Source: Escherichia phage Eeyore
Length of the DNA: 45,057 nt
Direction: 5' to 3' (one strand)
Sequence record: PP925821.1
The notes under the pieces are model-generated. The model saw only the letters and a list, made by a program, of their open reading frames with translations, ran no database searches and had not been told where the DNA came from. Of the stretch, positions 3,798 through 3,884 are shown piece by piece. The first letter of the stretch is position 1. Every line of letters begins with the position of its first letter. The translations under genes were made by a program, and so were the position numbers.

Positions 3798-3829
3798 TAA
3801 AAAAACCAGCCATAAGTGGCTGGTTTTGA
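3798..3829. terminator. Bidirectional intrinsic terminator flanking the att core
   Basis: 8-bp stem AACCAGCC/GGCTGGTT with loop ATAAGT, A-run upstream and T-run downstream; on the minus strand it directly follows the tRNA-like 3' end. Confidence 0.6.
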
Positions 3830-3838
3830 TAATAATTT

Positions 3839-3884
3839 TGGTCGGCACGAGAGGATTTGAACCTCCGACCCCCGACACCCCATG
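3839..3884 (-). other. attP core: 3'-terminal 46 nt of a tRNA-Pro (proL-type) gene, not a complete tRNA
   Basis: Minus strand reads CATGGGGTGTCGGGGGTCGGAGGTTCAAATCCTCTCGTGCCGACCA (T-arm GGAGG-TTCAAAT-CCTCT, acceptor 3' strand, CCA), matching recalled E. coli proL from the anticodon loop to the 3' end. Upstream sequence diverges and no 5' acceptor strand is present. Confidence 0.7.

What the first reader, a model, noticed from the sequence alone, without database searches (positions are those of the whole stretch)
3798..3884. attP carries the 3' 46 nt of tRNA-Pro plus its terminator
The att core reproduces a proL-type tRNA-Pro from the anticodon loop to CCA and is followed by a strong hairpin with a T-run, so integration would reconstitute a functional tRNA gene and its terminator. 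The match stops abruptly upstream, marking the probable crossover boundary and predicting the integration site in the host as the GGG-anticodon tRNA-Pro gene.
Basis: partly seen in the sequence, partly recalled or inferred. Interest (0 to 1): 0.4.

Follow-up and report, generated by a model that had tools for sequence, protein, structure and literature searches.

The report
Phage attachment site in proL tRNA
This is the attachment site (attP) of a lambda-like phage that inserts into the bacterial tRNA-Pro(GGG) gene proL and replaces the tRNA's 3' end and terminator with its own copy; this is a well-known strategy, so the finding is correct but ordinary.

Summary
Window 3839-3884 (minus strand) is exactly the 3' 46 nt (C31 to A76) of E. 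coli proL tRNA-Pro(GGG). It is followed by an 11-bp hairpin with a T-run (3802-3827). No tRNA finder calls a full tRNA.

A lambda-type integrase gene lies 137 bp away. In 12 of 5,426 complete E. coli genomes the phage's left arm joins an intact proL next to yejM. The integrase arm joins the displaced fragment next to yejO.

Similarity to the host stops abruptly at 3884. On the other side it runs through the terminator, which is a native Enterobacter-type proL terminator (42/43 nt identical to E. asburiae).

One lysogen (ECONIH5) sits elsewhere, in the ppx/pdeF terminator hairpin CCGAC-N7-GTCGG. This hairpin mimics the anticodon stem-loop, and its junctions place strand exchange at 3882-3886. 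That supports a crossover at the anticodon loop.

Conserved features are three 11-bp-spaced TTCCCC repeats, a fourth in the other arm, and an IHF-like site.

Novelty is low: this is an anticodon-class tRNA attP, and proL is already a known prophage site.

The parts
3751..3782 (+). P' arm: three direct repeats spaced 11 bp apart (TTATTCCCCC / TTTTTCCCCA / TGATTCCCCG), proposed arm-type integrase binding sites
   Evidence: Direct-repeat family D1. WTTCCCC occurs 21 times in 45 kb, yet 4 same-strand copies lie within 263 bp around the core. The triple repeat is conserved at the same place in elements whose Int is only 76-78% identical (NC19, F467). Other proL-phage lineages carry different triple repeats at the same position. 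Binding is inferred, not shown.
3787..3835 (-). Segment homologous to the host sequence downstream of proL (spacer, terminator and a few bases beyond); about 85% identical to E. coli K-12 and 42/43 identical to E. asburiae over the first 43 nt after CCA
   Evidence: Local alignment score 45 against 15.3 +/- 2.3 in shuffles, 0 of 2000 reaching it.
3802..3827 (-). Intrinsic terminator hairpin (11-bp stem, 4-nt loop) followed by a T-run extending to about 3795; it terminates the rebuilt proL after integration
   Evidence: Compared with E. coli, the stem differs by a compensatory pair (CCAGCC/GGCTGG versus CCAACC/GGTTGG). The same stem is the native proL terminator in many Enterobacterales.
3836..3884 (-). 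Block of perfect identity with E. coli attB (the common core, 49 bp)
   Evidence: Alignment of attP, attB and both lysogen junctions.
3839..3884 (-). 3' 46 nt of tRNA-Pro(GGG), positions C31 to A76 (anticodon CCC on the + strand at 3879-3881)
   Evidence: Not called as a tRNA.
3877..3883 (.). Inferred 7-bp overlap (crossover) region, equal to the anticodon loop. It is flanked by the proposed core-type half sites CCGAC (3872-3876) and GTC (3884-3886)
   Evidence: The identity block ends at 3884. The ECONIH5 secondary site is CCGAC-GAGAAAT-GTCGG, and both of its junctions switch inside ATGTC, 3882-3886. The exact cleavage positions are inferred.
3885..4020 (.). P arm, from the core edge to the int stop codon. 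The first 56 bp are variable and the rest is conserved across lineages
   Evidence: No similarity to the host tRNA 5' half or promoter.
3941..3956 (.). Conserved palindrome CTGTATATGCAAACAG at +57 from the core edge. It matches CTGT-N8-ACAG (LexA-box-like); its role is unknown (an RDF site or a LexA site)
   Evidence: The left half is ATGT in two lineages, which weakens the LexA reading.
3987..3998 (+). IHF-like site ATCAATGAGTTA (ATCAA-N4-TTR) preceded by TATATAC. It is present in every lineage examined, with the ATCAA and TTA parts invariant
   Evidence: The consensus comes from general knowledge; binding was not tested.
4007..4016 (+). P-arm copy of the arm-type repeat (TTTTTCCCCA), in the same orientation as the three P' copies, at +124 from the core edge
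4021..5208 (-). int: lambda-type tyrosine integrase, 395 aa from ATG 5208 (the mechanical ORF call starts at TTG 5214)
   Evidence: Pfam Arm-DNA-bind_1 28.1 bits (cut-off 22), Phage_int_SAM_5 23.8 (cut-off 22.3), Phage_integrase 26.8 (just under the cut-off of 27.1). PHROG 1 integrase, E 3e-31. Full-length alignment to lambda Int 1z1b, E 1.6e-14, with HxxR, H and Y conserved. 99.5% identical to the Int of lysogens CX21 and ECONIH5.
5211..5420 (-). Candidate excisionase (69 aa) immediately upstream of int and abutting it
   Evidence: The position is conserved next to int in relatives. One homologue is named Excisionase by UniRef. There is no Pfam, PHROG or PDB sequence hit. The AF2 model (pLDDT 71.9) has no significant fold match. 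Assignment is inconclusive.

Best explanation
The feature is the attP of a temperate lambdoid phage that integrates into proL, the tRNA-Pro(GGG) gene between yejM and yejO in E. coli and its counterpart in Enterobacter.

A lambda-type, arm-binding tyrosine integrase is encoded 137 bp away. It is proposed to bind the TTCCCC arm repeats (three in P', one in P) and the half sites CCGAC / GTC that flank the 7-bp anticodon-loop sequence. It would exchange strands across that loop, probably with IHF bending at the conserved ATCAA-N4-TTA site.

Because the crossover lies at the 5' edge of the shared block, everything 3' of it in the rebuilt gene comes from the phage. This comprises 46 nt of tRNA, the spacer and the terminator. 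The phage therefore carries an exact copy of the tRNA 3' part and a working terminator of proL type.

The host's own 3' fragment and terminator are displaced to the other prophage end, next to int.

Shown: identity, the junctions in lysogens, an unchanged tRNA, the integrase family, and the position of exchange in one natural secondary-site event. Inferred: which bases Int contacts and cuts, the IHF and Xis roles, and terminator activity.
For: - Sequence identity of 46 nt to proL, in a 49-bp identity block.
- Not a full tRNA.
- Terminator hairpin of -15.8 kcal/mol with a T-run.
- Integrase with a lambda Arm domain and catalytic HxxR/H/Y.
- Contiguous attP only in phage or viral records.
- Junctions: the phage-left/tRNA-Pro/yejM junction in 12 of 5,426 E. 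coli genomes; the yejO/core/P-arm junction next to int in the same strains.
- The junction tRNA is identical to the wild type and is called by ARAGORN.
- Enterobacter wuhouensis carries both junctions, with a 97% identical Int.
- Secondary-site lysogen ECONIH5: the empty site in K-12 is GCGGGCCGAC-GAGAAAT-GTCGGCCCGC, and the junctions share ATGTC.
- Arm repeats and P-arm layout are conserved in lineages with 76-78% Int identity.
- The anticodon-centred attP class and restoration of the target by a 3' fragment are described for thousands of islands (PMC4383910).
Against: - No experiment exists: integration, cleavage positions and protein binding are all inferred from sequence.
- The Pfam catalytic-domain score is 0.3 bits below the curated cut-off.
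- The first catalytic Arg aligns one residue off lambda R212.
- The excisionase candidate matches no family or fold.
- The overlap sequences of attP and the ECONIH5 secondary site differ at 5 of 7 positions. A lambda-like reaction should tolerate this poorly, so that event may have been resolved atypically.
- ECONIH5 has a free, intact proL, so why the secondary site was used is unexplained.
- The same tRNA fragment plus terminator also occurs as an unused relic in other elements. The fragment alone therefore does not prove an active att site.
Confidence: 0.9

Rival explanations
1. It is attP for proL, but strand exchange happens elsewhere in the 49-bp identity block (T-loop or T/acceptor junction class) and not at the anticodon loop. 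The identity up to C31 would then be incidental.
For: The block is perfectly identical throughout, so proL lysogens cannot resolve the exchange point. T-loop and junction classes are as common as the anticodon class (PMC4383910). The ECONIH5 event is a single, possibly aberrant case whose overlap differs at 5 of 7 positions.
Against: Sequence 5' of the crossover ends up in the displaced fragment and needs no identity. A block reaching exactly to the anticodon stem therefore argues for an anticodon-loop crossover. In all lineages the block ends within 3 nt of the same place (3884 or 3887). The only non-proL junction pair switches at 3882-3886, in a site that copies CCGAC-N7-GTC.
Confidence: 0.07
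2. The fragment is a relic of a former attachment site, and this phage now integrates elsewhere or not at all. This is the situation in the ssrA-integrated myovirus prophage, Gifsy-2 and a phage-plasmid, all of which carry the same P' arm, terminator and tRNA fragment.
For: Relics exist. In strains 1500 and FEX669 the fragment is internal and the prophage sits at ssrA with another integrase. There are truncated copies in Gifsy-2 after sseI and in pZ1323HEC0010-3.
Against: Here the fragment is flanked by the matching P arm and by an integrase that is 99.5% identical to the one in proL lysogens. The lysogen junctions break exactly at this core.
Confidence: 0.02
3. The window is a prophage and the feature is an attL or attR junction, or it is a decayed phage-borne tRNA gene, rather than attP.
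For: PGAP annotates the equivalent displaced fragment in strain NC19 as a 78-nt tRNA-Pro. Rfam gives a weak full-length tRNA alignment at 3842-3911 (13.7 bits).
Against: Neither flank is host DNA: yejM and yejO are absent, and both sides match phage Flotzy. ARAGORN and Rfam reject a tRNA here and in NC19. The P arm shows no significant similarity to the tRNA 5' half (1195 of 2000 shuffles score as well).
Confidence: 0.01

Closest known systems
Anticodon-centred (class A) tRNA attachment sites of tyrosine-integrase phages and islands (Williams 2002 classification, as used in Islander, PMC4383910)
   Same: A 3' tRNA fragment in attP that restores the split gene; an identity block running from the anticodon stem-loop to the 3' end; a displaced fragment marking the other prophage end; the integrase gene adjacent.
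   Different: Nothing in kind. The points specific to this case are the target (proL), an extension of homology through the terminator, and the particular arm repeats.
Bacteriophage lambda Int / attP (heterobivalent integrase, arm sites P1-P2 / P'1-P'3, IHF, Xis)
   Same: The integrase aligns over its full length with lambda Int, including the arm-binding domain. There are three tandem arm-type repeats on one arm and at least one on the other, and an IHF-like site. The gene order tail fibres - att - int - small ORF - exonuclease matches the lambdoid layout.
   Different: Lambda integrates between gal and bio, not in a tRNA gene (general knowledge). The arm repeat sequence (TTCCCC) is unrelated. 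The putative Xis has no detectable similarity to lambda Xis. All four arm repeats share one orientation.
Other prophages at tRNA-Pro between yejM and yejO: the gtrIC cryptic prophage of Shigella flexneri 1c (PMC4924310) and the proL prophages of E. coli O121:H19 (PMC8767318)
   Same: The same chromosomal target, with tRNA-Pro and yejO as the prophage boundaries.
   Different: In the Shigella element a 414-aa CP4-57-like integrase lies 210 bp from the tRNA on the yejM side. That is a different integrase lineage and the opposite layout.

Membership tests
tRNA-targeting attP, anticodon-loop class | attP carries the 3' part of the target tRNA, identical to the host gene from the anticodon region to the 3' end | tested here: met
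   46/46 nt identical, C31 to A76.
tRNA-targeting attP, anticodon-loop class | It is a fragment, not a complete tRNA gene | tested here: met
   ARAGORN finds 0 genes. Rfam tRNA scores 13.7 bits against a cut-off of 29. The upstream flank is not similar to the tRNA 5' half.
tRNA-targeting attP, anticodon-loop class | Lysogens show a rebuilt tRNA at one end and a displaced 3' fragment at the other, flanking the prophage | tested here: met
   Junctions in SZQ1, CX21 and others: 12 and 7 genomes with at least 80% junction coverage. The tRNA is unchanged. The displaced fragment is not called as a tRNA.
tRNA-targeting attP, anticodon-loop class | Strand exchange occurs within the anticodon loop | tested here: inconclusive
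   Supported by the edge of the identity block at 3884 and by the ECONIH5 junctions switching at 3882-3886. Cleavage sites were not mapped.
Lambda-type heterobivalent tyrosine integrase system | Tyrosine recombinase catalytic domain with R..HxxR..H/W..Y | tested here: met
   FHEIR, AH and KIY align with lambda H308/R311, H333 and Y342. The first Arg is one residue off R212. Pfam PF00589 scores 26.8 bits against a cut-off of 27.1. PHROG 1, E 3e-31.
Lambda-type heterobivalent tyrosine integrase system | N-terminal arm-type DNA-binding domain | tested here: met
   PF09003 Arm-DNA-bind_1, 28.1 bits against a cut-off of 22, residues 3-61.
Lambda-type heterobivalent tyrosine integrase system | Repeated arm-type sites on both sides of the core | tested here: met
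   Three TTCCCC repeats at 11-bp spacing in P' and one in P, conserved in position across diverged lineages. Protein binding is not testable here.
Lambda-type heterobivalent tyrosine integrase system | Cognate excisionase (RDF) | tested here: inconclusive
   A 69-aa ORF sits in the expected position. No family, PDB sequence or fold match was found, and only one source names a homologue Excisionase.
Lambda-type heterobivalent tyrosine integrase system | Recombination activity between attP and attB | not testable with these tools
   Requires in vivo or in vitro recombination assays.

The most novel reading that the evidence does not exclude
The conserved palindrome in the P arm (CTGTATATGCAAACAG, 3941-3956) sits at the same distance from the core in every related proL element. 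It could be a working LexA box. LexA bound inside attP/attR would then either gate excision directly or drive an SOS-inducible transcript through the displaced tRNA fragment to the terminator. Either would link site-specific recombination at a tRNA gene to the SOS response without going through the phage repressor.
Probability: 0.08. Interest if true: 0.6.

Novelty: new member of a known kind. Interest (0 to 1): 0.17.

Why it matters
The finding mainly serves annotation. It fixes the integration site, orientation and prophage ends for this phage group (Flotzy-like lambdoid phages of E. coli and Enterobacter). It also flags the displaced fragment as a source of false tRNA-Pro calls.

Two by-products have some wider use. 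First, a natural secondary-site lysogen shows the integrase accepting a terminator hairpin that copies the anticodon stem and loop length. This is a clean illustration of why dyad-symmetric tRNA sequences are favoured targets, and it narrows the exchange point without an experiment. Second, the phage-borne terminator is nearly identical to the native Enterobacter proL terminator. This suggests that the att region was shaped in, or exchanged with, that genus.

The defined attP/attB/Int set could serve as an integration tool for proL, which is conserved across Enterobacterales.

Tried and rejected
(1) I tested whether attP is a decayed copy of the whole proL gene, with the P arm being the tRNA 5' half plus promoter. 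A by-eye alignment gave 15/31 matches, and PGAP calls a tRNA-Pro at the equivalent place in NC19. Local alignment against shuffles showed no signal for the window or for three other lineages. ARAGORN and Rfam reject the NC19 call. Rejected.

(2) I treated 'lysogens elsewhere' as a refutation. ECONIH5 (ppx/pdeF) proved to be a unique secondary-site event. FEX669 and strain 1500 carry the fragment only as an internal relic in a prophage integrated at ssrA with another integrase.

(3) I tried to assign the excisionase by sequence (Pfam, PHROGs, PDB) and by fold (AF2 plus Foldseek). There were no significant matches. The WD40 hits are repeat artefacts.

(4) I looked for a promoter beside the P-arm palindrome. 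No sigma-70-like site was found there by the scan or by eye.

(5) Literature searches for a described proL attP of this phage group found only mentions of proL/tRNA-Pro as a prophage site. Williams 2002 (PMC100330) is not held.

Full report
**1. What is in the sequence**

Read on the minus strand, window 3884 to 3839 is CATGGGGTGTCGGGGGTCGGAGGTTCAAATCCTCTCGTGCCGACCA. The 77-nt proL tRNA-Pro(GGG) of E. coli K-12 is CGGCACGTAGCGCAGCCTGGTAGCGCACCGT followed by the same 46 nt. The fragment therefore runs from C31, the last base of the 5' strand of the anticodon stem, through the anticodon GGG to CCA.

- The 45-mer occurs once in the window and never in 100 shuffles.
- ARAGORN calls no tRNA anywhere in the window.
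- Rfam's tRNA model reaches only 13.7 bits against a gathering score of 29.
- Eleven bases beyond CCA there is an 11-bp stem with a 4-nt loop (3827-3802), followed by a T-run. Its energy is -15.8 kcal/mol. The native K-12 proL terminator gives -15.7.

**2. Surroundings**

The window is a lambdoid phage genome. Its closest record is Escherichia phage Flotzy. The head and tail genes resemble mEp213/mEp043 and phi80.

- To the right of the fragment, after 136 bp, lies the stop codon of a minus-strand gene (4021-5208).
  - The gene matches Pfam Arm-DNA-bind_1 (28.1 bits against 22), Phage_int_SAM_5 (23.8 against 22.3) and Phage_integrase (26.8 bits, 0.3 below the cut-off).
  - It matches PHROG 1 integrase at E 3e-31.
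  - It aligns over its full length to lambda Int structures (1z1b, E 1.6e-14) with FHEIR, H and Y in register with lambda H308/R311, H333 and Y342.
- A 69-aa ORF abuts int upstream (5211-5420), followed by an exonuclease gene.
- To the left are a UmuD-like ORF, a small ORF, a DinI-like gene, a DNA invertase gene and tail-fibre genes.

This is the lambdoid order: tail fibres, att, int, xis, exo.

**3. Is it attP, and is proL the target?**

An 801-bp query across the site found no E. coli genome, out of 5,426 complete ones, that holds it contiguously. All of them match the tRNA part. The contiguous form occurs in phage Flotzy and Phi06_2987 and in three IMG/VR contigs.

In lysogens the site is split exactly at the core.

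- Strain SZQ1 has DinI - two small ORFs - terminator - tRNA-Pro - yejM.
- Strain CX21 has yejO - host terminator - tRNA 3' fragment - P arm - int.
- The four-way alignment with the empty K-12 locus (yejO - proL - yejM) shows a 49-bp common core, 3836-3884. Phage sequence lies on one side of each junction and host sequence on the other.

Using the junctions themselves as queries gave these counts:

- 12 genomes carry the left-arm/tRNA/yejM junction.
- 7 carry the yejO/core/int junction; one of these, F467, has a diverged integrase (86% identity over the junction query).
- 5 more carry the yejO/core/P-arm junction with cargo genes (an HTH protein and an ImmA/IrrE peptidase in SZQ1) inserted between the P arm and an int that is 99% identical.

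The junction tRNA is identical to the wild type and is called tRNA-Pro(GGG) by ARAGORN. The displaced fragment is not called. Enterobacter wuhouensis carries both junctions with a 97% identical Int. Integration at proL, with the tRNA and its terminator supplied by the phage, is therefore shown by natural lysogens.

**4. Where the similarity ends**

To the right of 3884 I suspected a decayed tRNA 5' half. PGAP even annotates a 78-nt tRNA-Pro at the equivalent place in strain NC19. Local alignments of the P arm against the host 5' half and promoter score no better than shuffles, for this phage and for three diverged lineages. ARAGORN and Rfam find no tRNA there. The match does stop abruptly. In one lineage (F467) it runs 3 nt further.

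To the left, similarity continues beyond CCA through the terminator. It is 85% identical to K-12 (score 45 against 15.3 +/- 2.3; 0 of 2000 shuffles). The stem difference is compensatory: CCAGCC/GGCTGG against CCAACC/GGTTGG.

A scan of one genome per species for the proL 3' end followed by the phage-type stem returned 84 loci. In most of them the hairpin is followed by host genes, so it is the native proL terminator of Enterobacter, Kluyvera, Klebsiella, Raoultella, Cedecea and others. In E. asburiae TN152 the 43 nt after CCA match the window at 42 positions. With that host the shared block is about 89 bp. The terminator in attP is thus a homologue of host proL terminators, of the Enterobacter type.

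**5. Where the crossover is**

In proL lysogens the core is identical, so the exchange point is invisible. One genome helps.

E. coli ECONIH5 carries a prophage with the same Int (99.5%), but between ppx and pdeF. Its left junction reads ...CCGACACCCCATGTC|GGCCCGC. Its int-side junction reads ...GGGCCGACGAGAAATGTC|ACTGCG. The empty site in K-12 is GCGGGCCGAC GAGAAAT GTCGGCCCGC. This is the hairpin between the convergent ppx and pdeF genes.

The site has a 7-nt loop and the same inner stem, CCGAC...GTCGG, that flanks the anticodon loop in attP and attB (CCGAC ACCCCAT GTC / GAC). Both junctions switch parent inside ATGTC (3882-3886).

Identity with proL ends at 3884. Together these place one exchange at or next to 3882-3884 (tRNA positions 31-33). 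This fits a 7-bp overlap equal to the anticodon loop (3877-3883), with the stem halves as core-type sites.

The pattern (host loop on the int side, phage loop on the other) is what one daughter strand of a heteroduplex overlap would give. It is also what a Holliday junction formed at the right edge and resolved otherwise would give. I cannot tell which.

This is one event: only 1 of 5,426 genomes has it. It is unexplained why it happened in a strain whose proL is intact and empty.

**6. Arm anatomy**

Left of the terminator are three direct repeats at 11-bp spacing (TTATTCCCCC, TTTTTCCCCA, TGATTCCCCG; 3751-3782). A fourth copy in the same orientation lies at 4007-4016, just before the int stop. 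WTTCCCC occurs 21 times in the 45-kb window on both strands, so four same-strand copies within 263 bp are far from chance.

Elements at proL whose Int is only 76-78% identical keep the triple repeat and the P-arm copy at the same positions, while the surrounding sequence has diverged. Other proL-integrating lineages have different triple repeats at the same spot, for example GGTAAAAC x3 and GGGGTGAAAC x3. That is the pattern expected of arm-type integrase sites.

The layout of the P arm is conserved:

- 56 variable bp;
- a palindrome at +57;
- an A/T-rich block;
- ATCAA-N4-TTA (IHF-like), present in every lineage at +102/+103;
- the arm repeat at +124 (+123 in two lineages, and not detected in two others).

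**7. Comparison with what is known**

The restoring 3' fragment, the displaced fragment and the adjacent tyrosine integrase are the standard design. So is a crossover subsite at the anticodon loop. Islander lists 3,760 islands with a 3' tDNA fragment and 2,083 with anticodon-centred attP (PMC4383910).

proL/tRNA-Pro between yejM and yejO is already reported as a prophage site, in S. flexneri 1c (PMC4924310) and in E. coli O121:H19 (PMC8767318). The system works like lambda Int/attP and passes the family tests I could run. The excisionase remains unassigned.

**8. Verdict**

The feature is a new member of a well-known kind, and interest is low.

The added points are the secondary-site lysogen that localises the exchange, the Enterobacter-type origin of the terminator segment, the arm-site map, and a conserved LexA-box-like palindrome of unknown role.

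Noticed in passing
L005 / L009 (E. coli ECONIH5, NZ_CP026202.1 4,046,000-4,087,300); empty site L014 28187-28213: A prophage with the same integrase (99.5%) is inserted in the ppx/pdeF intergenic terminator hairpin GCGGGCCGAC-GAGAAAT-GTCGGCCCGC. This hairpin mimics the anticodon stem-loop. The strain's own proL is intact and unoccupied, which is unexplained.
   Followed up: yes
L006, L007, L008 (E. coli FEX669 and strain 1500, next to ssrA): A myovirus-type prophage integrated at ssrA with a different integrase keeps the whole DinI - small ORFs - TTCCCC repeats - terminator - tRNA-Pro fragment module internally. It is identical to attP up to window 3889, followed by a 272-aa ORF. This is a relic of a former proL attP after an integration-module swap.
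   Followed up: partly
L102 1601-1724 (Gifsy-2, NC_010393.1 44211-44334, after sseI); L017 about 3001-3058 (plasmid pZ1323HEC0010-3, ParA-bearing phage-plasmid): Both carry truncated or mutated copies of the same P' arm, terminator and tRNA-Pro 3' fragment, next to DinI-like genes. The module is dispersed among unrelated temperate elements.
   Followed up: partly
window 3133-3148, 3941-3956, 20327-20342: There are three perfect CTGT-N8-ACAG (LexA-box-like) matches against 0.39 expected. One lies between the divergent DinI-like gene and the orf79/UmuD-like operon (TACTGTATATGTATACAGTC). One is inside the attP P arm, conserved in position across lineages. One is at the start of a DNA methyltransferase ORF.
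   Followed up: partly
window 1-2768: A Hin/Gin-type DNA invertase gene (2214-2768, PHROG 125, E 1e-78) sits beside oppositely oriented ORFs. Homologous prophages annotate these as tail fibre and tail-fibre assembly proteins. This is a probable invertible host-range segment.
   Followed up: no
L010 3035-4470 (SZQ1); L011 3030-4200 (NC19); L013 (EC11): In several proL prophages, cargo genes are inserted exactly between the last P-arm repeat and the int stop codon. They are an HTH protein plus an ImmA/IrrE peptidase in SZQ1, and two hypothetical proteins in the others. The window and Flotzy lack this insertion.
   Followed up: partly
L011 2854-2931 (E. coli NC19): RefSeq annotates the displaced 3' fragment plus P-arm sequence as a 78-nt tRNA-Pro. 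ARAGORN and Rfam (gathering threshold) do not call it, so it is probably a tRNA-fragment mis-annotation of the kind discussed in PMC9897764.
   Followed up: yes
L062 (Enterobacter asburiae TN152), L024, L056: The native proL 3' flank is identical to the window's spacer and terminator (42/43 nt in L062). This points to Enterobacter as the source of, or exchange partner for, this part of attP.
   Followed up: partly
window 5208-5214: The mechanical ORF call starts int at TTG 5214. Annotated homologues (395 aa) start at the ATG at 5208, and the stop codon of the upstream 69-aa ORF lies at 5211-5213.
   Followed up: no
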